Shown: piece after piece, positions 2 through 63,627 of the stretch
How the letters are laid out: each line of letters begins with the position of its first letter
How positions within the stretch are numbered: position 1 is the first letter of the stretch
IMG/VR virus record: IMGVR_UViG_3300028833_000002
From: a virus
Lineage: Duplodnaviria; Heunggongvirae; Uroviricota; Caudoviricetes
Length of the DNA stretch: 64,000 nt
Strand: one strand, 5' to 3'
The notes under the pieces: model-generated
Seen by the model: only the letters and a program-made list of their open reading frames with translations
What the model was told of the DNA's origin: nothing
The model's database searches: none
Position numbers and translations under genes: made by a program

Positions 2-1432
2 TTTGAAGCCGCTGTTGAGGAAGGTGCTACATACACATTCGACTGCGGAAACTATACATGGGTTGGTGTTCAGATGAAAAACGCATCTGGAGGCAACACT
101 CGTGCAGAATTAGGTCATGGACCTGACACTAGGTCAGTTACATTCACAGCAGCAGCAGGTGAAACACAGGCTGTAATGCGTTTCTATCCGGGCGGTGGCG
201 TTGAATTTGACCAAATTGATTGGACTAAGATTTCATACACTAAAGACGGGGAAACTGCTGGTGAATGTGCGGGCCGCAATGCCGCTGACATCGAACGACT
301 TGATGGGTCAGCAATAATACCACCGCTTGTTTCAACAAATATCGTAGATATACTTGCTAAGGGCACTCGTAATGACCCAATTTACTTAACTCTTATGGGA
401 GATTCAATTACCTATGGTTACTCAGCGAGCGATGGAAAGTCATGGGCAGCACGTCTTGCTTCTTATCTTTCTGAAAGATATTTGGCGGGGGTTGTTGTTC
501 AGAACACTGGTGTTTCAGGCTGGGTATCAACAGATGCTGTAAGAGATATTGAAACAGCAATGCCATCAAATTCAAATATCGTTATTGCAATGTTTGGTAC
601 AAATAACCGTAGAGGTTCAACAGAATTAAATGCTCTTTACGATGATTATACAACATTCTATAATCGTGCTCAGAGCATTGGCGCAAAATTCATTCCGGCT
701 TGTTGTACAGCAGAAACATTAGTTAACGAATCTCTTGGTCCTGCTGGTCCGGGCAAATACGTTACTGACATGAGTGAAATTCATAGAATCCTTTCAAGAT
801 GGGCGAAAGACCACAACCTTGAATTACTTGATTTGTATGAAGGATTACTTAAGTATTGTAATTATGACACAGATGCTTTTGATAAGCTCTTTAATCAAAC
901 TGAAACAACAAATGTGGGTGGTCAGAGCTACCCATTCCACATCCATCCTAACGATGATGGACATTACTTAATGTATAGACTTTTCTGTGAGAAGTTAGGA
1001 ATCGCGGCACCTGTTGAATACTTTTCTGCTCCTGTTGGCGGCGGCGGTGCAACAAAATACTTACACCGTATTTACCTTTATAGAAAAGGTTATTATTACA
1101 TTGGATTCGATTTGTTCACAAACTCAGATACATCGTTCCAAGGTGATACTTAGGAAGTATTCAATGCACTTGCAGCAGAATTCACAGCTCAAAACTTTAC
1201 CAACTTCTCATGGAGAAGTATTCCTCATGCAACTGGTTGGTATAGAGAAACATCTGATAGTACGGCTATTACAATCGGAGCAATATACTACGATGGTACT
1301 GACTTTGTTGGTATTCGTGAGGGTGTTTCATTATCAACATTTGCCGATGCAACGATTAAACTCACCAACATGAAGGCGTTCAGTTCTTCACCAAAGGGCA
1401 CAATATTTGACAACAACATCCAAGCTATTTAA
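2..1432 (+). CDS. SGNH/GDSL hydrolase-domain structural protein (5' partial; fibre or esterase); in-frame TAG at 1151-1153 read through to TAA at 1430
   Basis: The frame is open from the window edge. The GDSL block I motif MGDSITYGY and block III FGTNN are present. The ORF continues in the same frame past the TAG and ends at TAA. Confidence 0.6.
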
Positions 1433-1514: not shown

Positions 1515-1775
1515 ATGGCATGGCATACTTATGAATCCTCTGGTAATAGTATTATTGGCGCGAACGTTGAAGAATGTCCGATAACTCCAGACTTCTTAGG
1601 TCATAATACTATTGCTGTAAAGGCTAATGTTAATATAGAAGTCAATGGCAAAGTTTATCATTTAGATGGTATAGAGGGTAGCACAGACATAGATGTTGTC
1701 GGCCCATCTCTTAAAACTAATGATGACTTATATATATTAACCTACGACCAAAAATTTATTAATGTAAGGAGGTAA
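1515..1775 (+). CDS. hypothetical protein (87 aa)
   Basis: An AAAGAGGTGA ribosome-binding site lies 5 nt before the ATG. It follows a terminator. Confidence 0.5.
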   Translation: MAWHTYESSGNSIIGANVEECPITPDFLGHNTIAVKANVNIEVNGKVYHLDGIEGSTDIDVVGPSLKTNDDLYILTYDQKFINVRR

Positions 1776-4700
1776 TGTTAATGACATATGGTAGTGCACA
1801 TTATTGGGCTTCTGAAGACCTTAACACCACAGGTGAAAATGTCGGCATAACCCTTGATAGTATGTGTGATATTATCGCGGCGAATGACGTTACAAATGGT
1901 AATGCTGTTGTATTCATTCCGGGCGATATTGAACACGGACAGAAAGGACATTTTCGCCTTGGTGAAGGCGGTGGAAGTGGCGCAAACATTGATGCTAGTG
2001 CTTATTAGCTTGTTGTCGGTGACGGCGAAGGTAATGGTATTGGCGCACAAGGCGGTGCTGAAGCTTAGGAAGCCAATAAAATTTATTTAAAAAACAAGAG
2101 ATTAGGTCCAAATATTCCAACTCATGAAGATGATGGAACTCCATTGGAAAACGTTGATACTGGTTCTTTTACCATTTCTTCAAATGGTTTAGGTCATACT
2201 CATACTGAAACAGTTCATGATGAAGAACTTGATGAAGATGTAGAGGTATAGGTAGAGGATGATGGCTGGAAAGCTACGATTGAAGATTTAGCTAAAGTGC
2301 TTGCTACTGGTAAGAGTAAGGTTGAGATTGGTGAAAAGGATGCAGATTATAATTTAACTTTCTGGGGAGATACACTCAATGGTCCAGATATAAAAATTAA
2401 AGGTGCCGCAAAAATTGAAATGCTCGAAAAAGCAGTTGAAACTGACAATCCTGGCATTACAGCGATTTCAATGAGAGGTAATTCTCTTATTGATATGTCG
2501 AATGAGAAGGTCTATAATTATGACTGGAAAAATAGATATTTTCCAAATGGTAGTTCAGAACGACAAAATTATAGAAGATTAAGTCCTTTTATTAATAAAG
2601 ATGATGGCCCTATACTTCAACTTAAAGGTTCTCCGACTGTTATGTTTTAGGATGACGCCATCGTTAAAGTTGAAAATGGCTCTCTTGTTGAAGTGGGCGG
2701 TAACGCAAGAGTTCATATTGTTGGTGGCGAATGGATTAATAATGCAGCCCCAAATGCAATAAACGGACTCGAAGAGAAAAAAATAGTTAATATTATGGCT
2801 GGACCAGGTTTTTGGTCTGAGTTATATGGAAAAGATGATTTTTATAGTGTTTTAAACATGAATCCGGGTACACTAATATTAACAACGCAACTTCTAAAAA
2901 ATCAAATTCCAACATCTGGTGGCAGTGGTATTTATAGTTATCAATCATGTTTTTACGATACGGGCTATAGAGACACATATACACCGGGTTATTGTTTTGA
3001 TGCTTCAGATTGGAATGTTTTCCATCTTCGTAGAATAGCTCCGAAAAACTATGCTTCAAGCTCTGCCACAAAATATGATAATCAAAGGTTAAGAAGTAGA
3101 TTAGCTTCCCCAACTTTCAGTATGTCAAATGCAACTATGCTTAGCGTGACAGCAAGAGACGAGTCAGCAATTTGTTTAAATATTGGTGCTGCAGAGCACG
3201 GAACAATTGTAACAGATATAACTACAAATGGACATATCAATATCAAAGCCGGAATGGAACAGGGCGCTTCGTTCGTATACGATTTTGGTTCATAGCCAAA
3301 TGCAGATGCTGCGGTAAAGGTTGGATTTAGTGGTTGTTCAAGAATAGTTTTTCAGCCACAAGATGGCACAAGCATAAACTTTTCTCCAAGAGGGCCTTTT
3401 GGTTTTTTCATTAATGCAAAACATACAGAAATGAACTGGGAATGGGAAAAATTTTATGGTTTATTTGGCGGCCATGATGTTTTTGCTTAGGTTGACGGAA
3501 ATAGCCACTTTGAATCATGGAGCGGAACAGTTATTTTAAGAAACTCTAATAATTTAAGAGCTTATAATGGTTCTGATAACCCTAGATATGAATATTATCC
3601 TTACTTCCCATCTCCTGAAAAAAATCGTTCAGTTAATGGAACAATAACAGTAAATGCAGATTTGTCTGATACATCTATTGCTGATATTGAAAGTACATAT
3701 GGTAATCAGTTAAAGAGTGCAACTGCCTTAAATGCAGCAATAGCAAATGATTATACATGGACTGGTTTTTCTGGAACATCAAAATCAAAATTACCGGCAA
3801 TATATTATGAGACATTATCATGCTCTTCTTGTACTTGTGTGGGAACTATACCAAGTATAGTTCTTTATGGAGAATATGATACTTGGGATGAAATATATAA
3901 CTCGGAAGAATTTAAGCAGTGGGTAAAAACAAATTTAGGTTGCACTAATACTCCAACTTATAATTCTGTAACTGGAGGAGAGATTACTGGGAAATCCCAA
4001 TATAGCGATGGACGTTGGAGTTATAATGGCACTTTCCCTATAAATATAACTAATATTACTATAACAATTAGAAGTGGTAATTCAACAACTCCAATTGATG
4101 AGGCATATTCAAACTTTAAGATTATTTATAATGGTAGTAGTTCATATCCTGGCACAGTTGAAATGAGAAACAAAATTGTAAAAGACTTCTTAGATACTAA
4201 AGACTACTACCTAAGAAAAATCTTTAAACTTCCATCAAGCCCATATTTCTCTTATTCATCACTTACAGAAAATCAATATGAAGAATCAATTTCTTTAGAA
4301 GATATTACTTTTGACCAAACCGGTGGATATTATAATTATTATATAACTATTACAACTTCTACATATATAAATTTAAACAACACAACTGTAGAGCAGTTTT
4401 TACAAAATTCTTAGGTATTAGCTTCTTTAAGAAGTTCTTTTGGTAATTTTACATCAGTAGAGCCTTTGGAAAATGTAGACTTACAATATAGTCGTTATCA
4501 GTATAGCAGATATTACTATGCTATTAAAGGTATTAGGGTTCATTATGACAGCTGGCCATTAACTAATACATTCTACAGTAATAGCCCTAGCAGCGGCGGA
4601 ATGCTAAATTATCCGGGTGAAGATTTAAGTAGTTTAGACCCAGTAACACAGAATACTATAAAAAATAAAATTGAAACATCTTATACATCTAGTTATTATG

Positions 4701-5365
4701 GTGTCTGGGACTGGTCAAATGCAACTTTTGCTAACGACTATGCGGTTACAGAAACAGTAAGATACAGTGTTTCAACAACTTCTAATTATACAGGCAACAC
4801 AGAAACTCATCTTGGAAAGAGCTGGTATGGACCAATTCAAACAGCCGATAGAGTTGGCGATAAGGATTGGGATAGGTCTCCTATTATTCAAGCATACGGT
4901 CCAATAAACATCTGTGTAAGAGAGAAATATCAACCAGGTGTTGAATATAATACCACAATAACTACTAGTGAAAACGAATTTGATTTAACAGATATGAATC
5001 AAGCAATAAGAGATTTCGTAGCATCTAGTCATTACCAAGAATTACTGGATTACATTAGTAATAATTACTCTGGAAAAGAGCTTTATTACATTAATCGTAT
5101 CAATACTACTGCTTCTTCTACACAGTATGTAGTTTATTTCTTCCTTAAAGAAGATGATTGGGACTTAGAAGTGGCTTCAACTACTAATGTGCCTGTAGTT
5201 GATGTGACTGAAGGTTCAGAACTTCGTATGTATGGCGGCGCTAAGATTAAGGCCGTAACCAAGTATGGTGAAACAGTTTACGAATTTAGTAGTGCTGATT
5301 CAGATGAAGAATCTGTATCATTCACTCTTGCGGAACTTAAAGCACTTAAAAACTTATTATCTTAA
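1775..5365 (+). CDS. large tail-fibre-like structural protein (~1196 aa) with at least 7 in-frame TAG codons
   Basis: Track ORFs 1775, 2297, 2693, 3662 and 4466 are all in frame 2 and are separated only by TAG. There is no TAA or TGA for 3.6 kb. An AGGAGG ribosome-binding site precedes the start, and the gene ends at TAA. Confidence 0.6.
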
Positions 5366-5372
5366 TGAGAAT

Positions 5373-5400
5373 GGGGTCTACACAGGCCCCTTTCTTTATC
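5373..5400 (+). terminator. rho-independent terminator
   Basis: Hairpin ggggtc-tacaca-ggcccc followed by TTTCTTT. Confidence 0.55.
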
Positions 5401-5402
5401 TC

Positions 5403-5431
5403 TTTACTTTTTCCTCAAATTATGTTATAAT
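5403..5431 (+). promoter_or_regulatory. sigma70/sigmaA-type promoter, family copy 1
   Basis: TTTACT, 17 nt, TATAAT with extended TG (TATGTTATAAT), ahead of gene 5456. Confidence 0.5.
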
Positions 5432-5455
5432 AAAAATAAAAAAGGAGGAATTAAA

Positions 5456-6580
5456 ATGAATTTTGATAACACACTAGCAACATTCGGCTCAGACGGTGGC
5501 GGTGAATTCAAACGTGATATTGACCGTGAAGAATCCATTGGTTATTCAGATGGCTCTTTCGCCGCGAAATGGGAACCTTTCGCAACAGCCGAAGAGCCAA
5601 TCGTGCCGCAAATTGATGACAAAATCCGTGGTATGTCTTATGGTTACTTTGCTAATCGCGGCGAAATAACATCGAAGAACGGTCTTGCTTCTCAGAGAAC
5701 AATGTTCAATGTGGGATTTAATTGGACTTGTTTAACAGTGGTAAACTACCAAGAATCCTACCATTCTACAAACATCTTCGCAGACCATTTGCGCACTCCG
5801 TCAGACCATGACATCGAATCATTTGTCAACGCCGCACATGAACGAGGGGTTAAGGTATGTTTAAAGCCAATGGTTCATTCTCAGGACAATGTATGGCGTG
5901 CTTTCATAAGTTTTCCATCACACAACATGGATGACGTGGATGCTTATTGGAAGCCGTGGTTTGAATCCTATAAGAACTTCATTCTCCACTATGCTGAACT
6001 GGCGCAGAAACTCGGTGTTGAAATGTTTTGTATTGGATGCGAAATGCTTGGCGCAGAATATCGTGAAGCTGACTGGAGATACATTATCTCCGAAGTTCGC
6101 AGAGTTTATACTGGTATCGTAATCTACAACACTAACCATGACCACGAAGATACTCAGGGATGGTTTGACAGTCTAGACTACATCGGCACATCAGCATACT
6201 ACCCAGTAGGCGACCCAGACAACTCCTATGATGGCATGGTTAAAGCATGGACTGATATACGTTATCGTCTTGACGCAATCGCGGCGAGCCGTAATAAACA
6301 GTTCATCTTCATGGAAATTGGTTGCCGTTCTGTCAAAGGTGCATCAGCACATCCATGGGACTTTAACTATGACCTTCCATACAGCGAATATGAACAACTC
6401 ACATTCTACCAGTCATGTATGGACGTATTCTATGATGACCCATATTTCGCCGGCGTATTCTGGTGGGATTGGCCAACATATCTCCCAACATCCGTAGGCC
6501 GCGATTTCTACATCCACAACAAACTAACTGAAAAATACTTGTATGATTTTAATACGGCAAAGGGTTAGACAAAAACTTAA
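5456..6580 (+). CDS. TIM-barrel glycoside-hydrolase-like protein (possible depolymerase); TAG at 6566 read through
   Basis: An AAGGAGG ribosome-binding site precedes the start. The sequence has clan GH-A-like features (FMEIGC, CIGCEM). The assignment is by motif only. Confidence 0.5.
5558..5568. repeat. exemplar of the palindromic 11-mer TTCGCSGCGAA (TTCGCCGCGAA)
   Basis: Perfect palindrome inside a CDS. Confidence 0.6.
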
Positions 6581-6635
6581 TATCACTACATAAATAGAGA
6601 GGATAGAAATATTCTCTCTATTTTTATTTTATGAG

Positions 6636-7181
6636 GTGATTAATATGACAAGAAACGAATTAGTAAAGTCATTAGAGGCCGACCTTGGTAAACAGCTTGG
6701 CTCTAATTACAATTATGATTGGTGCGCTGCATATGTATCAGATAAACTTTTAAGACCAATTGGAGAAAAGTGGTTTAGTTCATGTACTCAGATGCGTGAT
6801 TACTTCAACCAGAAAGGTAGAGTAAACCATGATTATAGAACCGCTGAAATTGGTGATATTATCGAGTTTGACTGGGATTTAAGCGGCGATTGCGACCATG
6901 TAGGAATCATCGTAGATGTAGACTATGCTAAGGGTATTATCACAACAATTGAAGGCAACACAGACGGAAATCACTGGAAACTTTCAAAGGTTGCAAAGCA
7001 TACTTACAGCATGGATTACAAATACTTCGCAAACATTATCGACATGAGTTCTGTTTTCATGAATGAAGCACAGGAAAACAAACCAGCCGGCGGAGAACAG
7101 ACAGATACAGTTCTTAAGGCTGTAAAACTCATTATCGACGGCGAAGTAGTTTATGATGGCTACGCAAGAATTAAGAAGTAA
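6636..7181 (+). CDS. CHAP-domain peptidoglycan hydrolase (endolysin candidate)
   Basis: There is a conserved Cys in DWCAAYVS and a His in CDHVGIIV, typical of CHAP/NlpC-P60. A GAGGTGA ribosome-binding site is present. Confidence 0.65.
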   Translation: MINMTRNELVKSLEADLGKQLGSNYNYDWCAAYVSDKLLRPIGEKWFSSCTQMRDYFNQKGRVNHDYRTAEIGDIIEFDWDLSGDCDHVGIIVDVDYAKGIITTIEGNTDGNHWKLSKVAKHTYSMDYKYFANIIDMSSVFMNEAQENKPAGGEQTDTVLKAVKLIIDGEVVYDGYARIKK

Positions 7182-7194
7182 TGAGGTGAATTAA

Positions 7195-7518
7195 ATGGCA
7201 GAAGAATTAGTTAAAGAAGAAGTTGTTGAGGAAGCTCCTAAGAAAAAGAGGGGGCGTCCGAAGAAATCTGAAACTGCCGCAGAAACAGCAGTAGTAGAAG
7301 AAACAACTCCAGAAGTAGTTGCAGAAGAACCTGTAGCCGAAGAAGTTGCCGAAGTTGCCGTTGAACCTACTGTAGAAGTTCCTGTTGAAATCGTTACAGC
7401 AGAACCTACAAAGGCAGAAGTTGTTATTCCTTTCGCGGCGAAAGAAGCACCAAACTTCTACGCTGCTCGTGCAAACTCACCATTTAACGGCACAACAATT
7501 TCTTGTGTATTTAGATAA
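7195..7518 (+). CDS. acidic Glu/Val/Pro-rich protein with an AT-hook-like KKKRGRPKK
   Basis: A ribosome-binding site is present. The sequence is low-complexity. Confidence 0.45.
   Translation: MAEELVKEEVVEEAPKKKRGRPKKSETAAETAVVEETTPEVVAEEPVAEEVAEVAVEPTVEVPVEIVTAEPTKAEVVIPFAAKEAPNFYAARANSPFNGTTISCVFR
7432..7442. repeat. exemplar TTCGCGGCGAA
   Basis: Perfect palindrome inside a CDS. Confidence 0.6.
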
Positions 7519-7538
7519 TAACAACAGGCGGTGAGATT

Positions 7539-9146
7539 ATGGCACTTGATTATTCTATTGTTGATGGAATAATCAAAACTCTTATCTCCGGTATTGACGG
7601 TGATAAAAAAGTCACCGCAGAAAATTTCTCAGGAAAGGACTTAAAACAATTCATAGACCACCAAGATGTGTTCTGGGATGGACTTGTATAGTTCATGCAG
7701 AATGAAGATGTAAAGATGGGCAAGTATGGATTGAAGCAAGCTGATTTTCTCAATGAGGAAAACGCGGCAAGTGTTGTTGAATTTATCAATGACCATGCTG
7801 ACCTCATTGAGAATTTTCTTGATGATTGTCTTGAAAGAAAGACCGAACACTGGAACAAGAGTTTTGATAAGTTAATTGAAACTTTTAATGATATGGTTGT
7901 GGAAGATAAATAGATTGGTGAATCTATTTTTACAATAAATGATATTACTGCCGCAAATGCTGGTAATAGTTTTCGCGGCGGAGAATGGGTAAAGCCTTGG
8001 TAGAATGTTGGTGGTTATGATTATGCAGAGGTAAGAGGTAATGATAAGAACAGAGAAATTCTTGATAATCCTTAGTTCTTACAATACACACATAGAATTT
8101 TTGATAAGTTTATTAGACTTCTTATGCCGAAATATGATAGAACACTTGCTGTAGAAGACCTGAACAGAAACTTCTGGGTTATTGGTTAGGTTTTGGCGGC
8201 AATATTGGAGTTCTTGTTTAATGATGATAACCCTTATAAAGATGTGTTTGATGGGATATTAGATGAGATTGCTTAGTTGTGGGAGAATTTGTTATACCTT
8301 TGGATTGGATTTATTGCTATTTCTTAGAAGAAATAGATTGAAGATGTTTAGTTTATTGTTATGAGAGCCCCGGCTGATGATATTAGGAACTTTGAGAAAA
8401 GGGATGGGGCAATGATAAATGCAGGGGGTTTTGATTCTTTTTAGCAATTCTCAAATCTATTAAATTCTTTTAAAAGTAAGGTTGATTTTTTAAAAGATAT
8501 ATATACTAATAGTACAATCGTTGTATTGTTAGAAATTCCTATTTATAAAGCGGGTTATAACGATTGGCATTTTGCAAATTGCTTCGGATTATATGTTTAT
8601 AATAGGAGAGTTAGTAATGTAGGAAATTTCTTAACTGTTATGTATACAGCAAAAGATTTTGCAGTAGATACTTCTGAGCCAGAGTGGTAGTGTTATCCAA
8701 TAACATGTATTGCTTCGGCAAGAACTCATTACCGTTCGCCAAATAGTAATTTGGAAATTATTGATGATTAGGAGTCGTTAGTCGAAAACCCACCACTCAC
8801 AACCTTTATAAAAAATGGCAAAGAATACTCAATAATCACAGAAGTCCGTCCAGATAGAACAATCTGCGCGGCAAGAACCAAATACAACCTATCAATTACT
8901 TTTAGTGGCAAAGACATTACAGACTTAGGAATTACAATGGATTTCTATGATGTTGCTTATGAGTTGTTTGGTGCAGCATCATCAAAAGTATTAACGGTTA
9001 ACCTTGTTTTAGATAATAATGAAATGGTATATGACAGTCACCAAAGCTATACATTACCTTAGCTATCGGGGACTGTTAAAGTTGAAAAAGGAATATATTG
9101 GGGGGAAGTTTTAGCAGACTTTAACCAAAATATTCACTTTAATTAA
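7539..9146 (+). CDS. structural protein, paralogue A (~535 aa), about 13 in-frame TAG codons
   Basis: Frame 0 is open from ATG 7539 to TAA 9144 and is interrupted only by TAG. The region 7914-9146 has no track ORF because of TAG density. It aligns to 11188-13356 and 15246-15803 (LMP...VEDLNRNFWVIx[Q/TAG]). Confidence 0.55.
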
Positions 9147-9160
9147 AGAGGTGATAGAAA

Positions 9161-10153
9161 ATGGCAATAACAGGAACAGGAACATAGGGAGACCCTTTCG
9201 TAGTGCATAGTTACGAGGAATTTATATCGTTGTCTGGTCACGAACCAATAACTGGCACTAAGGCAGTTTATATCCAGTTTTTTGATACTCCAAATCGAAC
9301 CATAGATTGTAACGATTACGGTTCTGAATTTAAATGGGGTGAATTTACTGGTAATGCTCGTCTCTATGGAAACTGCACATATTATATAGACTTAAACGGA
9401 TGTACAATTAAGAACTTTTTAATTGAAGATGGGAAAACAATGTTTTTTGGAGAAGATCAGCATGAGTGGAATGGTTCATATACACGGATTGAAATTAGTA
9501 ACGGTGCAATAAGAAACGTATTCATGGGCTCAGCAACATCAAAGGTGTGCGGCGACTATGTAGAGTTTCATGATGTGTCGCTGTCAGTTAACGCTTCAGG
9601 AAGCACTGTTGTTCCGTTTGATGGCAATGGTCACATAATTATCGACAACACGGCTTTATATTTAGTCGCAAGCACTCTTAATACGTCGCTCATGAAAGGT
9701 GCCCGAATAACAGATACAGATATTGAACTGCATATAGCCAATCAGAATGAGAAAAATATATTCGATGCCACTCTTACGGATTGTCGTATACAGGGAAAAA
9801 TTAGTGGTAAAGGTATGCCTACAGGTCTGAATGCCGATACTTGCGTCTTGGACCACTGCGGTTTAAATTCAAAATCTCTTAATTACACAAATTGTGTAAT
9901 CGATTTGGATTTAACCGATAGTCGCATAATAAACTATGGCTTTGGCGGGTCAAGATACGATGTGTTCATCAACTATAATGGTTATGACTTCAACACAAAC
10001 GTAATTTGCAACTCGCATCATCCTAACGACACCGGACATGAATCATTTTATGGCTACCAGTCAGACTGGAACTTCATCTCACACACTCTCATGCGAAATG
10101 GGGCGTATTTAAACTCAAAAGGCTTTACAGTAGTTGAAGTGGTTGAAGGGTGA
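9161..10153 (+). CDS. hypothetical structural protein; TAG at 9185
   Basis: An AAAGAGGTGA ribosome-binding site precedes ATG 9161. The gene ends at TGA. Confidence 0.5.
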
Positions 10154-10158
10154 CCTGA

Positions 10159-10716
10159 ATGGCTGATTGGAAAATAGTAGACGGTAATCTACCGTTTAAA
10201 GACGGCTTTGCTGTAAGACCTACCGAGTTTGATGATTATCCTAACTGGATATGGCATAATGTAGCAGACGAGTTACCATACAAGGTTGTATTTCCTACTC
10301 TGTTTGCTATAGATGATGCGCCTAAAGCATTGTGGAAGATAAGCGATGATTTACCTTTTAAGTCATCGTTTGCTCCACGATTTATAATTGACGATGCACC
10401 AGCTTCGTTGTGGAAAATCATTGATGGGGATTTACCATTTAAAAGTTTGTTTCCAAAAAACTATGGAATTACAGATGTCCCTCTCGGCATTTGGGCAATA
10501 AAAGACGGGGACCTACCATATCGTAGAAACTTTCCACCAATGCCGGGGCCTCCAACAATGTGGGGTACCATCACAGAACTTACCCTTTCTCAAATGCACA
10601 ACTCCCCAATACTTCTCAAAACCCAAAAGTCCCAAGACGTACAAATTGGTGACACAACAATCCCACATCAAATCACAAAGCGCTTATTCGAAGGCATAGA
10701 TTGGGAATTAATATAA
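10159..10716 (+). CDS. tandem-repeat protein (5 copies of ~22-aa DDAPxxLWKIxDGDLPFKSxF)
   Basis: Internal repeats are visible in the translation. The gene ends at TAA. Confidence 0.55.
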   Translation: MADWKIVDGNLPFKDGFAVRPTEFDDYPNWIWHNVADELPYKVVFPTLFAIDDAPKALWKISDDLPFKSSFAPRFIIDDAPASLWKIIDGDLPFKSLFPKNYGITDVPLGIWAIKDGDLPYRRNFPPMPGPPTMWGTITELTLSQMHNSPILLKTQKSQDVQIGDTTIPHQITKRLFEGIDWELI

Positions 10717-10728
10717 GGAGGTAGTAGT

Positions 10729-13700
10729 ATGAACTACGGACAAGACAAGTTCTTTAATGGCGACAAAGGCCTTTATACTACCCTCATATCAGACCTACTT
10801 AACAAATATAAATCAGACAACGATTTCCGGAAGGACGTCCAAGTGGACTCCTTCTGGAACGAGTCTTTAGCCAGACTTTTAGAATTACTTAACCAAAAGA
10901 TTGACCCTAATGGTATTCGTAATTATGAATCGTCTGGCTTATTAGTAGAACTGATAGACGGTACAATAGATGATTCTGTGTTAAGAGCCGCACTTACCAC
11001 AAAGGATTCAAATGATAGATATGCCGCAATCCGCTTAATGGATGTTATGGACGCGGATGCTGGTGCTAATTTTTGCGGCGAAGACGACTTATATGAACAG
11101 ATGCGCTTTTATGAAACCATTACTATCAATGGTGCAGTTGGTAAAAACGTTTTATTTGATAGTTAGGCTTTTGGACCATTAGATAAATTGTTAGCTGGGG
11201 AAGACATTCTTCATGGCGCCTTTACCTATATAATAAGGGGAATTCGTTCAGGCGTAGATGCCGAAACTGGAAAAGCCTACTGGCCACCTTATGCTGAAGG
11301 TGAAAATTCAGCAACGGCTTCAACTCCAACAACTTATCGGGTAGTCAAGAAACCATGGGTAATTCCTTGGTTCAATCTCGATATGGAAAGTTATTCTAAG
11401 GTTCGCGGCGAAGACAAGAAACTCAGTGTTCTCGCAGACCCATCAGACTTAGGCTTTACCTGTATGCAAAGAGATGGACTTGCAGACGACATGGAATTTA
11501 GAATCCAAGCTATGCAAATCTATAACATATTAGTTGAAATTGGTCTTGAAAAAAATAAAGGAGAAACAGAGTTTGACAAATACAGAGCTTACGGCAAACA
11601 AATCGACTATACATCTCATAGCTTTGAAAATATTAACATGGACAAACGTCAAGTTCTCGAAGTAGACGATACTGTAGAAACTGTTCTCGGAAGTTCAATG
11701 GCTATACGTATAGGTGATGTAATACCACCGGAATCTACCGTAGACTTTAGTAGTATTGAAGACATGTATGTTTCAATCTGTTATAGCCCATTAGAACAAA
11801 CAGAAGGCATCTATCCAATACAACTAACCAACGAAGAAGTAACGCAATACTTCTCAGACATAATCTACAATATACTTGAACAAAGCACAACAGCTCCAGA
11901 CCCATCGGATATAGTATTTAAAGTTAAAAACACAGATAGGGCCGCTAAGAACTTACTCGCCGCCATTGAGGTCGTAGACGAAGACCACGTAGATGACAAT
12001 GCTCCAGTTGCCCTTGGTAGTTGCTTACACTATTGCGGCAAGTTCGGTTCAATCCAACTCATGGAAAAAGAAGCCACAAAAGTCGCAGAAAGAATTGGTG
12101 TGACCTACGAAAAATTTGAAAACATGGAATTTGACGACTTCTGCTCTCTATGGGCGCAAAAAGCAAATCGTTGGATTCGTCTTATCATGCCGCAAAATAA
12201 ACGCAGAGTTGAAGTTGAAGACCTTAATAGAAACTTTTGGGTTATCGCTCAGGTAATTGCCGGCGTTAGTGCTTACTTATTTGACGGGGACGGTCCAATC
12301 AGTGAGTTCCTTAAAGGCATGATTAAAGAAATTGGTCAACTTTGGGAGAATGTTATTTACCTTTGGATGACGCAAAGTTTAATTGGAGAGCCTCCACTTA
12401 TAACAGATACACACTGTGAAGTGCTTATGCCGAACGCAGCTCACGGGAAAGTTTCAATGACCTATGATGATTTCGTTTGCTCTCCAGAACTCAATTATCT
12501 CTTACAAAAATATCCAGACAAAAACCTTTGCATTTTGCCTTACATGAGAAAAAATAATTATGAGAACGATTATTACTCTAAGGTATCGTTCCCAGGTGTT
12601 TATATCTATGATAGAAACATGGATAACCCTTCCTGGGAGGTCTTACCACTAAATACCACAGGGTTGGAAATAGATTTGGGAGATTATGCCGACCATATAT
12701 ATGGTCTGATTAAATTACCGGAATACAACATCTCAACTGGCAAATACATGGTAGACGATTTCACAGCAGAAATGTTCCCTGAGCACTACAGAAATTACTT
12801 AACTTTCGCGCCGCTTAGTTCAGCACCATACATTGGTCTTGACCTTAAGAGATACTATGGTCTTGCAAGAGATATTATAGATTTTGACGGAAAACTCTAC
12901 AAGAAAAATTCTGAAGGTATTTGGGAAAAGAATCCACAAATTGACATTCACATTATCTTTAGAGATACAGTAAGAGAAATGATGACAGATAGGGTAGCTA
13001 ACCTTATGGAGTATAAGGGTGAGTATGAGGAAGGAGTAATCACAACAAAGAAATATAAAACAGCTCTTGACAATGGCCCTCTTGGTGAAGTAGCGCCTAC
13101 ATTAACACCTATTAAAAAGGGCTACTATCAGGGCGAAATGTTAAGCACATATGTTGATGTTGATGACCCTATGTACTCAATTATGGTTTTACCTACCATG
13201 AAAACAGAGCCATATTACGAAACTGAAGCACACTTCAAATCTCATTACAATTACACAGATTTACCTGACCTTGTGGCTTCTGATAAACAAATCTTACTTG
13301 CATATGCAAAGGCAAGCGAAGATTATTCAAATAACCCAGCGGCATTTAAGATGTAGAACTATAATGCATTAAAGGCTTTATACACAACAGAAGAAGTTAT
13401 GTATAAGAATACAGCCGCGGTTTATGATAAAACCACAAGAAGTGCATTAGCAAGTGATACGTCAGGTGAGGAACCAGTTCTTGTATATCCTACATTTGCG
13501 GATTATTTAGCAGAGCTTGTGTCGGTAATCAACAAAGACAAGTATATTTCTCCTTACTGCTTAATATTTGCAGAAGGCGAAAAGAACTTCAACTATCGCG
13601 CCGATACAGAAGAACCACATAAAATGATTAAGTATTTAGCATCAAAAGATGGTTTAGTTTCTCAGTATTATGAGTCAACACATCCGACCGACTTCACCAA

Positions 13701-14769
13701 TGCTAATGCTGTTATTTATTGCGGCAAAGAACATATTGCATCAGATTATCCGGGCCATCGCACAATAAAACCAACTAATGGACATAGTTTCCTAAGTGGT
13801 GTACTTTCTGTTCAGAGAGACGGCGAAAAGTTCAAATTTGGCTATGGTAATTACACTTGCGAGGAAGCACTACAACTCCCTATTGATACAACTGGTGAGG
13901 GACGCACTACAACTTCAATAATGGCCGGACAGCATGAACAATGGTTAACTTGTAAACAGACTGGTTAGGATTTCGGCCCATCAACATGGCTCGTAGTAAA
14001 GGTTGAAGCTCCATATGCTGTTAATACTAAGTTGATTAATGGTAGTAACGACACTATGGAAAAATATTGTTGGGGCACACTGAGAGATGAAATAGACCTA
14101 AATAGATAGTTCGCAAGAAATATCGCGGTGCAATGGTCTACTCGTGAAGAAGCAGACACTTATATAGATACATGGGGAGATGCTGTAAATGCTATCAAAG
14201 AGGCTTTCGCGGCGGAAGAAATGGATATATATGAGGATTCATGGTATTTAGAGCAGGCAATTATAGGTATATCAAATTCACCTTACTATGATGAATGGTA
14301 TATAGAACAGTGTGGCCTTTATGATGACGACCCTCAATGGGATACTAAGGTAAGGGCATGGCTACAAGATAAAGGCATCACGCCGCAGACATACACATCT
14401 CATGGTTTTGATACATGGACTGGTGAACGTATTTTCATCAACACTTCAATGCGTTCTGAAATAAGAGTTTATATGTTCGGTCCGAATGGTATGTATGGTC
14501 AAAAGATTTACAGTAGAAATGCCGATGGTGAATTTGACCAAACTCACATTGAAACGGGCGGCACACATGATGTAGACACAGTTCGTGCTGGCTACGAAGT
14601 TATTAACAACTCTAGCCGCAATCGCAACTATGAAAAATATAAAGACTTCGGTCATAAAACGGACACAACATACTATGACCCAGACCAGATGGATGATACT
14701 GTAGAAGGCCCGGCATGGTATGAACAACACATTACTTGGGTAGACCAAAACCCTCCGTGGGATAATTAA
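10729..14769 (+). CDS. giant structural protein, paralogue B (~1346 aa), 4 in-frame TAG
   Basis: Track ORFs 10729, 11188, 13399 and 14128 share frame 1 and are separated only by TAG (11167, 13354, 13966, ~14107). An AGGAGG ribosome-binding site is present. Confidence 0.55.
11402..11412. repeat. exemplar TTCGCGGCGAA
   Basis: Perfect palindrome inside a CDS. Confidence 0.6.
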
Positions 14770-14780
14770 GAGGTGAGATA

Positions 14781-17708
14781 ATGGAACGTTGGTTAGAATT
14801 TTTAAAAACAATTACTAACTTAAAGGTTCTTGTTCAAATGCTCGGTCTTACTCCTGAAAACGAGGAACGATTCTGGAAAGACCTCCTGGCTTTACTTAAA
14901 AGTCAGGAGCATCCAGTCGTTTTTGATGATGGAGAACTTACTGGATTGGTTGGATAGGTAATTAGTTCAGCAGACTTTGAAGACAGAGATGAAGAACCTT
15001 TTACAAGTGAACTTTACAACACACTTAAAGAGCTGATTTATAATGATACTAATGATAGTTTTTGGAATGAGTCAGTTCAGCAATTAATTAAATATTTCAT
15101 CAAGAACATTGAAGAAAGACCGGAGGACAAGATACTGATTCCAATAGGTGATGATAATGAACATAGTATTAGAATCAGTGATTTAAAGGCCGCAGATGCC
15201 GGCAATGGTTTTGATTATACACCTATTAATGATGAAGACTATTGGGTGCGTCCAAGGTATAATATAGATGATAGGGCTTACGATGAAGTAAGAGGTCACG
15301 ATGCTCTTAATGATGATTTATCAAATGATACGGCTGTACAATTCACAAAAGAAAAAGATATTGAAACATGGATTAGACTCCTTATGCCGCAATATGGTAG
15401 AAGAGTTTTAGTTGAGGATTTAGATAGAAACTTTTGGGTTATTGCTTAGACTATTAGTGCTATTTGCGCATACTTATTTGGCGACGAAAATCCAATAAAT
15501 AAAATGTGTGAAGGTATCGCAAGAGAAGTTTCTGAGATATGGGAAAATGTGTTATACCTTTGGTTAGAAATCGCGGCAATAACACAGAAGAAACAGAAAG
15601 GTATTAGAGTAATGAGTTTGTATGTGCCGCCAAGAGATAATGAACATGGCAGAAAATATGATGACTTTGAAAGTAAAAACAGTGCTATGTCATGGGATAT
15701 TGATGAATATGGTAATATGGTTATCACAGTTGAAGATTGGAATAGTTATAAGAATGAGATTGTGGATAGAATCGGTTATTTAACTGAGGATTTCGCAAAT
15801 TAGGACTTATGTGTTCTTCCAATTGTTAGACTTGATAATTATACAGTTGACTTCTATTCTACAGAATACTATCCTATGGTTTTATTCTATTCTAAAGATA
15901 CTAAGGAATGGACTTACAAGCGTATTAAGGAATAGATTGGTGATACATTAAAGGATTCTTTACTTATTTCGCCGCGATTTGAAGATAAGACAGACGGTAA
16001 GAAACGCTTTACTGATTAGATTATGGGACAGTTTAGAGTTTGTGATGGCGATATGGTAGTGTGGCCTTTCTCAAAAGTTCCAAGTCAAAGTAATGGTGAA
16101 GAAAATCCAACCTTAAAGTATATTGGTTGTTTACGTGTTAAACCAAACATTACTTTAAAGGAGAATGAAACAGAGATAGAAAATCTTGAATTATCTGTTT
16201 ATGATACATTTGCTATGATTTCTACTTCACATGAGGGAGAAATGGTAGACCGAGACTATAGTTTTATAGGTAAATATAGTTTAGTTCCTAGCAATGATGA
16301 CAGCCTTGTGCTTACTTATCAGGCTGATTCAGAACAGGCTGAACAGAGAGAAGAAGAATATGAAGATGACGCTATTCCTTGGCGAGAGCTAAAGGCTTGG
16401 TACGGCGGCGAAGTGGCATCATGGATGTTAGAAACTGCTTCTATCATTTCTTCTGATAATCTGTTTAACAATCAGGCTTATGTTCTTAAAATAGGAAATT
16501 ATCTACCAGAAAATGGCGATGATTTTATTATGGCTTCTGTTGATGATAGTGGCACTTTCAAATACACATCTATGTATGGAAACGTCACAAGAAAATCAGG
16601 AACGGGCCGCAACACCAAATACTATAGACTTAGATGGGACACTTACCAACCGGAAAATGATGGCGGGCCAGATGAAGCTGTTAAAAACAATAAAATTTGT
16701 TATGCAAAAGACCCGGAAAAACGACCATGCACATATCCAACAAAAGCTCATATAGAATATGATGGACTTATCGCGGCGAAGAATTTCATCAAAGCAAATG
16801 CAGGAACTGTAGGTAAGAACCCATGCTTCATTGCGACAACAATTGGCTTAACTCCGTGGTCAGGTACGGGAAGAACAGGTAGCGACGTTTTCTGGGATGT
16901 ATCATTCTTGCCGGCACTATATTTCTATATTCCTACCATAGAGTCATTAACTGGTATGCCATAGGAAACAGAGGGCTATGATTTTTCTCCATACATCAAA
17001 ACCTATACAGAGAATGAAGCCATTTATTTGGTTAATGATTAGCTTAATGCTGATGAAAGACCAGACGGGGACGGCACAGTCTATACCGAAGAAAATGGTC
17101 AAAAGAAAGAAATCGGCAAAATTATCGCTTGCTTACCTATGAATAGATATGAAAGTTACTTTAGAAAGCTGGGTCTTGAAGCTGATGATGGAACTTATAT
17201 GGGTGACTCGCACTGGAGACAATTCTACATTACCAATAATGATGAAAACAACGTATGCTCCAAAGAAGATGTTAATGGTGGTGCAAAAGTGCCGGGCGGT
17301 ACAACAATTTACCAAGCGACTTTTACACCTCGTTTTTGCGGCATGGTAGAATACTTTGACGTACTTCGCCACAACGCATCAAACAGAACAGCATTACTTT
17401 GGGAAGACCAAATTGCAAAAGTTTCAGAAGCAGTAGTTTAGATAGACCAAGACGGCTACGAACAAACAGAAGAAGGCTCAATTAGGTCAGCAAAAAATGT
17501 TGCGTTACCATGGGAAGATAGAGAAGCCTATGAAACACAAAGGTCAACTATGGCAACTGGTTTCCAACAGTTGATGAAAGAAGAAGATGGAGAATGGCAC
17601 GAACGTCCGGAAGACATTTATGGTAATATAGAAAAATGCATCGGGAAAAATGCAGAATACTTCCATGGTAATACAAAACTTAATGGCGGCTTGTGTATAT
17701 ATAGTTAA
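14781..17708 (+). CDS. structural protein, paralogue C (~975 aa), about 8 in-frame TAG
   Basis: Frame 0 is open from 14781 to TAA 17706. Track ORFs 15246, 16023 and 17139 are in the same frame. A GAGGTGA ribosome-binding site is present. Confidence 0.55.
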
Positions 17709-17717
17709 GTAAAACCC

Positions 17718-17883: not shown

Positions 17884-18792
17884 ATGAATAAGAAGAACTT
17901 AAACATGATGTGTGGCATCGTTATTGGCCTAGCGATGTGTTTTACAGTTGCAAGTTGCGGCTAGAACACAAAAGTAGACCTAGTAAACACAGATACTATT
18001 TATGCAGATGTCGCAGAAAGCACAGCAGAAACGACCATTGAAACAACTGTAATAACAACAGTTGCTACATCTAATTCCACAACAACTTCTGCCGCAATCA
18101 CCACAGCAGAAACAACAGTGGAAACAACTAATGCAGAAACAGAAGCTCCGGCAACAGAAGCTGAAGTAGTAATAGTGCCAGAAACAGAAGCACCAGCAGA
18201 ATATGTAGAACCAACACCGGAAACAGAAACTGAACCAGCACCAGTGGTTGAGCCAGTAGAAGAATACTTAGTTTATAAGCCAAGTACATATTACATCCAT
18301 CGTAGCACTTGCAGATGGAACAAAGATGACGCTTATCGTATAGACTCGGCTAATGGACTTACAGCAAGACTTTGTACTGAATGTTGCCCGGAATGTGATG
18401 GATTTGAAGAATACGTTCCGCCAGTGGAAGAAGCTCCAAGTTCTGATGGTTTAACATATTTTGGTTATTTCGGAAGAGTAACATATTACCCAGCAACAGC
18501 ATATTATGATGGTGTTTGCGGCGGTTCAGGTAGAACTCTTATGGGTTATGGTGATTATGGTAATGGCATAAGAGGTTCTGTAGCAAGCAGAACTTTATAT
18601 GAGACATATGGATATAATAGAAATGGTAGAACAACAGTTTATCTCGAATTTCCGGGGTATCCGGAGATGAATGGAACGTACTATTGTGATGATTGCTGTA
18701 GAGATTATGGTGTAATTGACGTTTTCGTATGGAGTGATTATAGCTGTCCATTCTATAATGCCGGTGTAATTACAGCAGACTGTTACATTTAA
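17884..18792 (+). CDS. lipoprotein with Thr/Glu/Pro linker and RlpA-like DPBB (lytic-transglycosylase-like) domain
   Basis: The signal peptide ends in the lipobox VASC. A TAG follows the Cys. The C-terminus reads GRVTYY...GGSG...VASRTL...NGRTTVYLEF. An AAGGAGG ribosome-binding site is present. Confidence 0.55.
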
Positions 18793-18946: not shown

Positions 18947-18947
18947 A

Positions 18948-20618: not shown

Positions 20619-21171
20619 AACATATGTTATAGCAAACCTTAATCTGTTTGAGCATGGCGACGACACCAAAAGCAGTATCGTTGAGAACTGGAATAAAGTG
20701 GTAAGTGAAGATGATGTTGTTATTGTCATGGGGCCTGTAGGAGTTGGTAGCTTTGATGAAATGAAAAGTGTAATTAGCCAACTCAACGGTGAAAAACTTT
20801 TATATGATTATAGCATTAATCAAATGTTTACCAAAGAGGAATGGAAGGAAATCGGTTTTAAATATTGTTGGAATACACCAATGTTCAATGAATTACCAAA
20901 TGGTGAACTTGTGTTCTATGTACTAGCAGATGATTCTGTACATACTAGAGAAGATTGTGCTTTGTTCGTGACGAGTACAAATCATAATGTTGGTGACATT
21001 AAAAATTACTTTATTCCTGACGCAGATACTTTTGATTTTTGTCCTATAGATGCGGATGAGGTTCTAAATGTTTATAATAATATGATGGCTTTTGAAAGTA
21101 TGCCGGACACTGTTGAAACTCATAGTGAGGTTAAAGAGCTTGAATGGGGTGATGTTAAATGGGATTCGTAA
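20611..21171 (+). CDS. metallophosphoesterase-like protein with degenerate motifs
   Basis: The layout resembles the protein at 33623, but the metal ligands are altered (FEHGDD, IVMGPVG). Confidence 0.4.
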   Translation: MNKTYVIANLNLFEHGDDTKSSIVENWNKVVSEDDVVIVMGPVGVGSFDEMKSVISQLNGEKLLYDYSINQMFTKEEWKEIGFKYCWNTPMFNELPNGELVFYVLADDSVHTREDCALFVTSTNHNVGDIKNYFIPDADTFDFCPIDADEVLNVYNNMMAFESMPDTVETHSEVKELEWGDVKWDS

Positions 21172-22908: not shown

Positions 22909-22933
22909 CACAGTAACTAAATAATCTTATCTT

Positions 22934-24713: not shown

Positions 24714-24788
24714 TTCCACGTCGTCAAGAGGCTCAAGACACCGCTCTCTAAAAGCGGCATTTCGAAGGTTCGAATCCTTCCGTGGAAA
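24714..24788 (+). tRNA. amber suppressor tRNA, anticodon CUA (reads UAG); Gln-like body with U1:A72
   Basis: The acceptor is ttccacg/cgtggaa. The anticodon arm is ccgct-ctCTAaa-agcgg. The T-arm is gaagg-ttcgaat-ccttc. It has its own promoter at 24398. Confidence 0.7.
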
Positions 24789-63614: not shown

Positions 63615-63627
63615 AGGAGGACAAAGT

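What the first reader, a model, noticed from the sequence alone, without database searches (positions are those of the whole stretch)
1775..17708. TAG (amber) is a sense codon: the late genes are long single-frame ORFs interrupted only by TAG
The standard-code ORF track breaks the structural module into fragments. Adjacent fragments always share a frame and are separated only by TAG. Every gene finally ends at TAA or TGA.

This gives ORFs of 3.6 kb, 1.6 kb, 4.0 kb and 2.9 kb with no TAA or TGA, which is implausible by chance at this AT content.

Three paralogous proteins align so that TAG sits opposite Gln. The conserved segment in 11188-13356 reads NRNFWVIAQVIAG and EIGQLWENV. The other two paralogues read WVIG[TAG]VLAA, EIA[TAG]LWENL and WVIA[TAG]TISA. 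This points to TAG decoded as Gln.
Basis: seen in the sequence. Interest (0 to 1): 0.8.

Follow-up and report, generated by a model that had tools for sequence, protein, structure and literature searches.

The report
Phage reads amber stop as glutamine

Summary
Four ORFs (1775-5365, 7539-9146, 10729-14769, 14781-17708) have no in-frame TAA or TGA but 7, 13, 4 and 8 in-frame TAGs. The chance of that is 1e-13 to 1e-32 per ORF. Codon-usage signal generally stays in the same frame across the TAGs. Reading TAG as sense raises coding density in 1-23 kb from 78% to 97%.

DNA-level alignments with syntenic metagenomic relatives put CAA or CAG opposite TAG in 48 of 93 changed columns. Tyr and Trp never appear. 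The Gln substitution profile beats the next best (Glu) by 143 log-likelihood units.

A tRNA with anticodon CTA lies at 24714-24788. A sister lineage keeps it with compensatory stem changes, and its acceptor end (U1:A72, A73) matches the phage tRNA-Gln type.

TAG is enriched in the first 18 kb (36 of 168 Gln-type codons against 7 of 203 elsewhere, p = 5e-8). All ORFs called with TAG as sense end in TAA or TGA, but two or three early-region genes may really stop at TAG.

This is a standard case of code-15 stop-codon recoding (Borges et al.; Peters et al.). The lineage itself is absent from GenBank phages. Verdict: interpretation supported; a new member of a known kind; modest interest.

The parts
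2..1432 (+). C-terminal part of a giant protein (about 1950 aa in the relative L001) with an SGNH/GDSL esterase domain; one in-frame TAG at 1151
   Evidence: Pfam Lipase_GDSL_2 at 1.4e-22. The L001 orthologue aligns across the TAG over residues 2-452 at 72% identity. The 276 nt after the TAG keep an in-frame coding score of 0.47.
1775..5365 (+). 1196-aa protein of unknown family; in-frame TAGs at 2006, 2066, 2249, 2648, 3293, 3488 and 4412; ends in TAA
   Evidence: Orthologues in L002 (85%) and L004 (67%) align collinearly. No Pfam or PHROG match.
5456..6580 (+). GH113 glycoside hydrolase; a TAG at 6566 lies 4 codons before the TAA, so it could be sense or stop
   Evidence: Pfam GH113 at 3.9e-94. 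The C-terminal tail is not conserved in L002 or L005.
6645..7181 (+). CHAP-domain endolysin; no TAG
   Evidence: Pfam CHAP at 1.3e-8 and PHROG endolysin at 1.2e-16.
7539..9146 (+). Paralogue A (535 aa), the most heavily recoded gene: 13 TAG against 8 CAA/CAG
   Evidence: Orthologues stay TAG-rich (10, 10, 7, 6) although the positions change. The AF2 model of a 95%-identical homologue (pLDDT 74) has no fold match.
9161..10153 (+). 330-aa protein; TAG at 9185 (codon 9); ends in TGA
   Evidence: Orthologues align from residue 1.
10729..14769 (+). Paralogue B (1346 aa); TAGs at 11164, 13354, 13966 and 14107
   Evidence: The L001 orthologue aligns over 1-1346 at 92% identity.
14781..17708 (+). Paralogue C (975 aa); 8 in-frame TAGs (14955, 15447, 15801, 15933, 16017, 16962, 17040, 17439)
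   Evidence: The L001 orthologue is 93% identical over 975 aa.
17884..18792 (+). Predicted lipoprotein; TAG at 17962, directly after the signal peptide and lipobox (..FTVASCG[TAG]NTK)
   Evidence: Translation. The L001 orthologue has the same N-terminus with Lys at the TAG position. A table-11 start downstream of the TAG would lose the signal peptide.
21159..22196 (+). GIY-YIG homing-endonuclease-like gene with TAGs at 21228 and 21378
   Evidence: Pfam GIY-YIG. In the relative L046 a TAG sits opposite the window's Gln in KCYIGQTK[Q]EFKTRF, inside the catalytic domain.
22282..22908 (+). Pro-rich 208-aa protein; TAG at 22846
   Evidence: The public gene call on the near-identical contig L039 has the same 208 aa.
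24714..24788 (+). Suppressor tRNA with anticodon CTA, which reads UAG; the adaptor for the recoding
   Evidence: ARAGORN and the Rfam tRNA model at 54.5 bits. It has a normal cloverleaf with U1:A72 and A73. An identical copy is present in 6 other contigs. The sister-lineage copy has compensatory stem changes.
51519..51591 (+). Phage tRNA-Gln (TTG), used for comparison with the suppressor
52836..52906 (+). Phage tRNA-Gln (CTG); it shares a 19-nt stretch covering the T arm with the suppressor (TCGAAGGTTCGAATCCTTC)
63285..63629 (+). Small gene in the early-type region with a probable sense TAG at 63486
   Evidence: The 46 codons after the TAG keep an in-frame coding score of 0.49.

Best explanation
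The window belongs to a roughly 190 kb tailed phage that uses genetic code 15. UAG is decoded as glutamine by a phage-encoded suppressor tRNA (anticodon CUA, 24714-24788). TAA and TGA remain the terminators.

TAG codons are concentrated in the host-recognition and lysis block (about 1-23 kb) and are almost absent from the block of small genes and tRNAs (23-64 kb). The likely working, following the published model, is this. Genes free of TAG are translated with the host's standard code. The TAG-bearing genes, above all paralogue A with 13 TAGs, yield only truncated products until the suppressor tRNA has accumulated and competes with release factor 1. Recoding would therefore act as a translational timer for late functions.

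Shown here: the in-frame TAGs, the Gln equivalence, the tRNA and its conservation, and the uneven distribution of TAG. Inferred: charging of the tRNA with Gln, the temporal switch, and the 'late' class of these genes.
For: ORF structure and chance.

Coding signal continues in frame across the TAGs. Coding density rises from 78% to 97%.

Collinear orthologues.

TAG against codon at the DNA level, with TAG masked as X in both sequences so the alignment is not biased: 48 Gln, 14 Glu, 7 Asp, 5 Ala, 4 Ser, 4 Lys, 0 Tyr, 0 Trp out of 93 columns. TAG is the partner in 17.8% of changed Gln columns, against 2.5% or less for any other residue. Log-likelihood is -191.5 for Gln, -334.4 for Glu and -377.7 for Lys; 32 columns conserve TAG in both sequences.

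TAG pairs with Gln in paralogues and inside a GIY-YIG catalytic motif.

Suppressor tRNA. Compensatory changes in the acceptor, anticodon and T stems of the L011 copy. CTA tRNAs in three further relatives. U1:A72 with A73 occurs in 4 of 4 CTA tRNAs; U1:A72 occurs in 8 of 11 tRNA-Gln and 8 of 66 other tRNAs.

Uneven use: 36 of 168 against 7 of 203 Gln-type codons, Fisher p = 5e-8.

TGA is not recoded.

The gene calls held in the public protein collection only make sense with TAG read as Gln ('translates_to_query: no' under table 11).

Published precedent: bioRxiv 10.1101/2021.08.26.457843; proteomic proof in crAss-like phages, PMC9523058.
Against: There is no peptide evidence for this phage.

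The aminoacylation identity of the tRNA is not established. Overall similarity to tRNA-Gln (62-68%) is no higher than to tRNA-Ile or tRNA-Phe; only the acceptor end and the T arm point to Gln.

No release factor 2 or GlnRS gene was found among the window ORFs scanned.

The temporal class of the genes is inferred, not measured. All genes are on one strand and no late promoter is defined.

The CHAP endolysin itself has no TAG.

Two early-region ORFs (34879-35097, 42927-43133) have no coding signal after their TAG and may use it as a stop.
Confidence: 0.93

Rival explanations
1. TAG is a sense codon but is decoded as an amino acid other than Gln (Glu, Lys, Tyr, Trp, Leu, Ser, or pyrrolysine as ARAGORN labels the tRNA).
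For: ARAGORN names every CTA tRNA 'Pyl'. Glu is the second commonest partner of TAG, in 14 of 93 columns. One relative (L013) carries a 94-nt CTA tRNA with a long variable arm, which is the Ser/Leu/Tyr type. The overall sequence of the tRNA does not identify its isotype.
Against: The Gln profile beats Glu by 143 and Lys by 186 log-likelihood units. There are no Tyr or Trp partners, 2 Leu and 4 Ser. The window tRNA is a normal 75-nt type I cloverleaf with a 5-bp anticodon stem and a GG-containing D loop, not the atypical tRNA-Pyl architecture. No pylS-like hit appeared in the scanned ORFs. The Glu, Asp and Lys partners are the usual substitution neighbours of Gln.
Confidence: 0.04
2. The host itself reads TAG as Gln, and the phage merely follows the host code. 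In that case there is no phage-driven switch and no regulatory role.
For: TAG is hardly used as a terminator anywhere in the window. The host is unknown.
Against: TAG use is strongly uneven between gene blocks (p = 5e-8), whereas phages matched to recoded hosts carry the codon in about 90% of genes. The phage carries its own CTA tRNA. No bacterium with TAG read as Gln is known (my own knowledge). [quoted passage not shown]
Confidence: 0.03
3. The standard code applies. The TAG-separated pieces are separate genes or decaying pseudogenes, or the breaks are frameshifts or assembly errors.
For: None beyond the table-11 ORF track.
Against: The chance of a TAA/TGA-free frame is 1e-13 to 1e-32 per ORF. 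Pieces as short as 2-4 codons exist. Orthologues from independent assemblies are collinear and carry TAGs at different positions. A near-identical sequence was recovered in several samples. All breaks are in frame.
Confidence: 0.005

Closest known systems
Code-15 (TAG to Gln) alternatively coded gut and rumen phages: the clades of Borges et al. (Agate, Sapphire, Jade, Garnet, Amethyst, Topaz), bioRxiv 10.1101/2021.08.26.457843
   Same: In-frame TAG aligned with Gln; a phage CTA suppressor tRNA; recoding concentrated in modules next to lysis genes; TAG-poor remainder of the genome; a recoded homing endonuclease; a large genome (Agate 154 +/- 27 kb, Sapphire about 200 kb); Firmicutes-type affinities.
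   Different: Clade membership is defined by the large terminase tree, and no terminase lies in the window, so it could not be tested. No RF2 was seen here. The TAG-rich proteins (family A/B/C) have no annotated relatives.
TAG-recoded crAss-like phages with proteomic validation (Peters et al., PMC9523058)
   Same: The same reassignment, the same suppressor tRNA logic, and recoded late virion proteins.
   Different: Those phages have about 100 kb genomes and infect Bacteroidota. There is no sequence similarity to this window. No proteomics exists for this phage.
Lak megaphages (Devoto et al., bioRxiv 10.1101/356790)
   Same: TAG recoding, a CTA suppressor tRNA, many tRNAs, and short unexplained introns in phage tRNAs.
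   Different: Lak genomes are about 540 kb, infect Prevotella, and always encode RF2. Here the intron-like insert is in the suppressor tRNA of a sister lineage, not in the window.
phAss-1 / proposed Phassvirus (Babkin et al., PMC10607447)
   Same: A 136 kb gut phage with TAG in 41 ORFs and suppressor tRNA genes.
   Different: No detectable DNA or protein similarity between GenBank phage records and the window's late module.
E. coli supE-type amber suppressor (tRNA-Gln with anticodon CUA)
   Same: A tRNA with anticodon CUA and a tRNA-Gln-like acceptor end (U1:A72) that inserts Gln at UAG. This comparison rests on my own knowledge.
   Different: supE is a chromosomal point mutant giving partial suppression. 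Here the tRNA is a dedicated phage gene serving dozens of obligatory sense TAGs.

Membership tests
Genetic code 15 (TAG to Gln) recoded phage | In-frame TAG codons in otherwise intact, conserved ORFs that lack in-frame TAA and TGA | tested here: met
Genetic code 15 (TAG to Gln) recoded phage | TAG positions align with Gln in homologues | tested here: met
   48 of 93 changed columns are CAA or CAG. Log-likelihood is -191.5 for Gln against -334.4 for Glu. Also seen in paralogues and in the GIY-YIG motif.
Genetic code 15 (TAG to Gln) recoded phage | Phage-encoded suppressor tRNA with anticodon CUA | tested here: met
   24714-24788. Conserved with compensatory changes. Present in relatives.
Genetic code 15 (TAG to Gln) recoded phage | TAG is not used, or hardly used, as a terminator; genes end in TAA or TGA | tested here: inconclusive
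   The 87 ORFs called with TAG as sense end in 67 TAA and 20 TGA. However, 34879-35097 and 42927-43133 show no coding signal after their TAG, and 62481-62804 is ambiguous.
Genetic code 15 (TAG to Gln) recoded phage | Recoding concentrated in late (structural and lysis) genes, with early genes compatible with the standard code | tested here: met
   36 of 168 against 7 of 203 Gln-type codons, p = 5e-8. The TAG-rich block contains GH113, a CHAP endolysin and an SGNH esterase. The 'late' timing itself is inferred.
Genetic code 15 (TAG to Gln) recoded phage | Peptides with Gln at TAG positions | not testable with these tools
   This needs LC-MS/MS of virions or infected cells, as in PMC9523058.
Genetic code 15 (TAG to Gln) recoded phage | Accessory code-change genes (RF2, GlnRS). 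These are frequent but not obligatory. | tested here: not met
   None among the 38 window ORFs or ORF segments scanned against Pfam. Only 64 kb of about 190 kb is available.
Agate or Sapphire clade of Borges et al. | Position in the large terminase phylogeny | not testable with these tools
   No terminase gene was recognised in the window. Genome size (a 191,580 bp contig) is compatible with either clade.
tRNA-Pyl (ARAGORN's label) | The atypical tRNA-Pyl architecture (short D loop, 3-nt variable loop, 6-bp anticodon stem) together with pylS and pylBCD genes | tested here: not met
   The tRNA is a canonical 75-nt cloverleaf with a 5-bp anticodon stem and a TTCGAAT T loop. No pyl genes appeared in the Pfam scans.
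tRNA-Gln-derived amber suppressor | Acceptor-end identity elements of tRNA-Gln (U1:A72) and descent from a tRNA-Gln gene | tested here: inconclusive
   U1:A72 with A73 occurs in all 4 CTA tRNAs and in the phage tRNA-Gln type. A 19-nt stretch covering the T arm is identical to tRNA-Gln(CTG). Whole-sequence identity does not discriminate between isotypes.

The most novel reading that the evidence does not exclude
The code switch may be controlled at the level of suppressor-tRNA maturation.

In a sister lineage (L011/L045 and L046, about 85-92% DNA identity over aligned blocks), the orthologous CTA tRNA gene carries a 49-nt structured insertion inside the anticodon loop, next to the anticodon. 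That phage still has an in-frame TAG opposite Gln in its GIY-YIG catalytic motif. So either the insert is removed as an intron or another suppressor exists.

The tRNA gene sits beside a PNK-HD end-healing enzyme. The phage also encodes a Thg1-like enzyme, two RNA ligases, a Ro60/TROVE protein and a ROOL RNA.

If these enzymes process or splice the suppressor, the switch in genetic code would be timed by a phage RNA-processing pathway.
Probability: 0.08. Interest if true: 0.7.

Novelty: new member of a known kind. Interest (0 to 1): 0.3.

Why it matters
For annotation: with table 11 the first 23 kb breaks into 28 fragments and gains spurious minus-strand ORFs. With table 15 it gives 17 genes, including proteins of 1196, 1346 and 975 aa. 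Any functional or taxonomic analysis of this phage has to use code 15.

For biology: this adds a large Firmicutes-type lineage that is absent from GenBank phages to the set of TAG-to-Gln recoded phages. One gene (paralogue A, next to the endolysin) stays TAG-rich across relatives although the TAG positions change. That fits the idea that recoding is selected as a translational block on late genes.

It does not change what is known about recoding.

Tried and rejected
- PHROGs scan of the eight late-module proteins: only the CHAP endolysin matched.
- Megablast of 1-25000 and 39001-64000 against GenBank phages: no match.
- tblastn of paralogue B against GenBank phages: no match.
- tblastn of the UvrD helicase: only distant Firmicutes-phage hits of 36% identity or less over most of the protein.
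- AF2 model of a paralogue A homologue (pLDDT 74), searched by Foldseek against PDB and BFVD: nothing at E <= 0.001, so the function of the A/B/C family stays unknown.
- 'Q' residues in database homologues were rejected as evidence. Those proteins do not translate from their contigs under table 11, so they were called with TAG read as Gln. I used the DNA codons instead.
- Whole-sequence nearest-neighbour typing of the suppressor tRNA: not discriminating.
- Scan of 185,579 bacterial and archaeal genomes for the 3' half of the suppressor tRNA: no match, so no host or donor tRNA was identified.
- Pfam scan of the extra 361-aa ORF beside the interrupted tRNA in L046: no splicing enzyme, only a sub-threshold pentapeptide hit.
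- TGA as a second recoded codon: rejected.
- PurZ identity of the PurA-like gene: the best PDB hits are cellular PurA at 1e-7, so this is unresolved.

Full report
**The observation**

The window has 37.6% G+C, and nearly all long ORFs lie on the + strand. With only TAA and TGA treated as stops, four very long frames appear:
- 1763-5365: 3603 nt, 7 in-frame TAG
- 7488-9146: 1659 nt, 14 in-frame TAG
- 10717-14769: 4053 nt, 4 in-frame TAG
- 14766-17708: 2943 nt, 8 in-frame TAG

From their first ATG they encode 1196, 535, 1346 and 975 residues.

In the coding frame there is not one TAA or TGA. Each of the other five frames of the same DNA carries 15-57 TAA and 3-73 TGA. From base composition, the probability of such TAA/TGA-free frames is 9e-29, 3e-13, 3e-32 and 1e-23.

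All interruptions are in-frame TAGs. Some inter-TAG pieces are only two or four codons long, so they cannot be genes.

**Coding-potential tests**

I trained a codon log-odds model on 22 TAG-free genes from 23-64 kb. It scores highest in the same frame on both sides of the TAGs, for every inter-TAG segment of 50 nt or more except one 84-nt piece of ORF A.

| Region | Table 11 | TAG as sense |
|---|---|---|
| 1-23 kb | 28 ORFs, 78.4% coding, 3 on the minus strand | 17 ORFs, 96.7% coding, none on the minus strand |
| 23-64 kb | 82.8% coding | 86.3% coding |

TGA is not recoded: it is absent in frame from the large ORFs, and the extensions past TGA stops carry no coding signal.

**Which amino acid**

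A search with paralogue A, with TAG masked as X, found 96 homologues. All are metagenomic and many are full length. Their contigs do not translate to the database proteins under table 11. The 'Q' in those proteins was therefore put there by a gene caller that used code 15, so it is not independent evidence. I compared codons directly instead.

I translated window and locus ORFs with TAG as X, aligned them by BLASTP, and kept columns with at least 50% local identity. This gave 93 columns in which TAG faces a different codon:

| Partner of TAG | Columns |
|---|---|
| Gln (CAG 26, CAA 22) | 48 |
| Glu | 14 |
| Asp | 7 |
| Ala | 5 |
| Ser | 4 |
| Lys | 4 |
| Leu | 2 |
| Tyr | 0 |
| Trp | 0 |

TAG is the partner in 17.8% of changed Gln columns, against at most 2.5% for any other residue. 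The residues opposite TAG fit the empirical substitution profile of Gln (log-likelihood -191.5) far better than Glu (-334.4) or Lys (-377.7). Another 32 columns conserve TAG in both sequences.

Two further cases support read-through:
- A TAG follows directly after the signal peptide and lipobox of the lipoprotein at 17884. The orthologue has Lys there.
- In the relative L046, a TAG lies opposite Gln in the GIY-YIG catalytic motif.

**The adaptor**

ARAGORN finds 26 tRNAs. One has anticodon CTA, at 24714-24788, and the Rfam tRNA model scores it at 54.5 bits. ARAGORN labels it 'Pyl' only because of the anticodon. It is an ordinary 75-nt cloverleaf.

An identical copy occurs in six other contigs. 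The copy in a sister lineage (L011) has compensatory substitutions in the acceptor, anticodon and T stems, which marks it as a functional RNA under selection. CTA tRNAs also occur in three more distant relatives.

All four distinct CTA tRNAs have U1:A72 and A73. U1:A72 occurs in 8 of 11 phage tRNA-Gln and in 8 of 66 other tRNAs. The window suppressor shares a 19-nt stretch covering the T arm with the phage tRNA-Gln(CTG). Whole-sequence similarity does not discriminate between isotypes, so Gln charging is supported but not shown.

From my own knowledge: U1:A72 is an identity element for both GlnRS and GatCAB, and CUA-anticodon tRNAs are readily accepted by GlnRS.

**Distribution of TAG**

In genes before 18 kb, TAG makes up 36 of 168 Gln-type codons. 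After 18 kb it makes up 7 of 203 (Fisher p = 5e-8).

Paralogue A lies two genes downstream of the CHAP endolysin. It uses TAG for 13 of its 21 Gln positions. Its orthologues stay TAG-rich (10, 10, 7, 6) while the positions change.

All 87 ORFs called with TAG as sense end in TAA (67) or TGA (20). Two or three early-region genes may nonetheless really stop at TAG.

Pfam identifies these genes in the TAG-rich block: an SGNH esterase domain, GH113, a CHAP endolysin and a GIY-YIG endonuclease. In the TAG-poor block it finds a PNK-HD enzyme, a Thg1-like enzyme, two RNA ligases, a Macro domain, NT5C, a PurA-like enzyme and a TROVE protein.

The big TAG-rich proteins have no Pfam, PHROG or fold match. 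'Structural' is therefore an inference from context.

**Origin**

Window 13029-32953 is 99.995% identical to part of a 191,580 bp ENA metagenome contig. Related contigs are 148-186 kb long.

Nothing similar is in GenBank phages at the DNA level, or for paralogue B at the protein level. The helicase has only distant relatives, mostly in phages of Firmicutes, and a relative encodes a dockerin protein. The host is probably a gut or rumen Clostridia-type bacterium. That is an inference.

**Comparison with the literature**

Stop-codon recoding of TAG to Gln, driven by phage suppressor tRNAs and concentrated in structural and lysis genes, is described for eight clades of gut phages. These include large Firmicutes-infecting ones (Agate, 154 +/- 27 kb; Sapphire, about 200 kb). 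The proposed role is to delay late-gene translation (bioRxiv 10.1101/2021.08.26.457843).

Gln at TAG was proven by metaproteomics in crAss-like phages (PMC9523058). Further cases are the Lak megaphages and phAss-1.

The window meets every sequence-level criterion of this class. Clade membership needs the terminase, and amino-acid identity needs proteomics. Neither was available.

**Verdict**

The window is a new member of a known kind, from a lineage not yet in GenBank phages. Interest is modest, at 0.3.

The most unusual side observation concerns the sister lineage. Its suppressor tRNA gene is interrupted by a 49-nt structured insert in the anticodon loop, yet that phage still carries sense TAGs.

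Noticed in passing
L011 2762-2885 (same contig as L045) and L046 about 4180-4303; orthologous to window 24714-24788: In a sister lineage the suppressor tRNA(CTA) gene has a 49-nt insertion inside the anticodon loop..ACCGGTCTC[GTGGGATGTGATAGTTCACGTAACATAGGGGCAGAACCTGTATCTCGCT]TAAAACCGG... The stems carry compensatory changes. The fold keeps the cloverleaf, with the insert as an extended hairpin. ARAGORN calls no tRNA there. The same phage (L046) has a TAG opposite Gln in its GIY-YIG motif, so it still needs suppression. The insert is too short for a group I intron. Short unexplained tRNA introns were reported in Lak phages..
   Followed up: partly
window 53631-54219 (+): A full-length ROOL RNA (Rfam RF03087, 285 bits, E = 2.7e-64) embedded in the tRNA array.
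   Followed up: no
window 60099-61754 (+): A 551-aa protein with a TROVE (Ro60-like) domain, Pfam 2.5e-8. It lies just downstream of the tRNA clusters and about 6 kb from the ROOL RNA.
   Followed up: no
window 23029-23991, 28052-28534, 29106-29918, 38763-39710, 44302-45534 (+): A tRNA/RNA repair toolkit: a PNK (AAA_33) plus HD protein directly upstream of the suppressor tRNA, a Macro domain, a Thg1-like tRNA-His guanylyltransferase, an Rnl2-type RNA ligase (PF09414) and a T4 Rnl1-type RNA ligase (PF09511).
   Followed up: no
window 41466-42602 (+): A short (378 aa), divergent adenylosuccinate-synthetase-like protein (PF00709, 1.8e-14). The best PDB hits are cellular PurA at only 1e-7. Whether it is a PurZ-type enzyme of 2-aminoadenine phages was not resolved.
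   Followed up: partly
window 42678-59683 (+): 25 further tRNAs lie in clusters, and some are odd: tRNA-Cys(ACA), tRNA-Leu(AAG), and a tRNA-like gene with a 2-nt 'anticodon' at 54662-54732. Rfam also scores a tRNA at 54320-54393 (38.8 bits) that ARAGORN does not call.
   Followed up: no
window 7539-9146, 10729-14769, 14781-17708 (+): Three tandem paralogues share a core, (L)MPxYxRxVxVEDLNRNFWVI...LWEN..YLW, with 22 invariant residues across 42 homologues. There is no Pfam, PHROG, PDB or BFVD match. This is an uncharacterised family restricted to these metagenomic phages.
   Followed up: partly
window 10159-10716 (+): A 185-aa protein built from about five repeats of a W(K/A)I.DG.LP(F/Y)(K/R) motif. 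No family match.
   Followed up: no
L013 9537-9630: A more distant relative carries a 94-nt CTA tRNA with a long variable arm (type II, like Ser, Leu or Tyr tRNAs) and an encoded CCA. In that lineage the suppressor may have a different origin or identity.
   Followed up: no
window, genes before 18 kb against genes after 18 kb: Gln codon choice flips between the two blocks: CAA 81 / CAG 51 in the TAG-rich block against CAA 61 / CAG 135 in the rest. CAG is over-represented opposite TAG (26 of 48), which fits single C/T transitions.
   Followed up: partly
window 34879-35184, 42927-43226, 62481-62813 (+): Early-region ORFs whose TAG (35095, 43131, 62802) may be a real stop. The first two have no coding signal in the read-through extension, and the third extension is only 2 codons long.
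   Followed up: partly
L011 993-2038 and L046 2411-3496, against window 23991/23990: The sister lineage has an extra insertion of about 1 kb, holding a 361-aa ORF, between the PNK-HD gene and the next gene just upstream of the interrupted tRNA. Pfam gives only a sub-threshold pentapeptide hit.
   Followed up: partly
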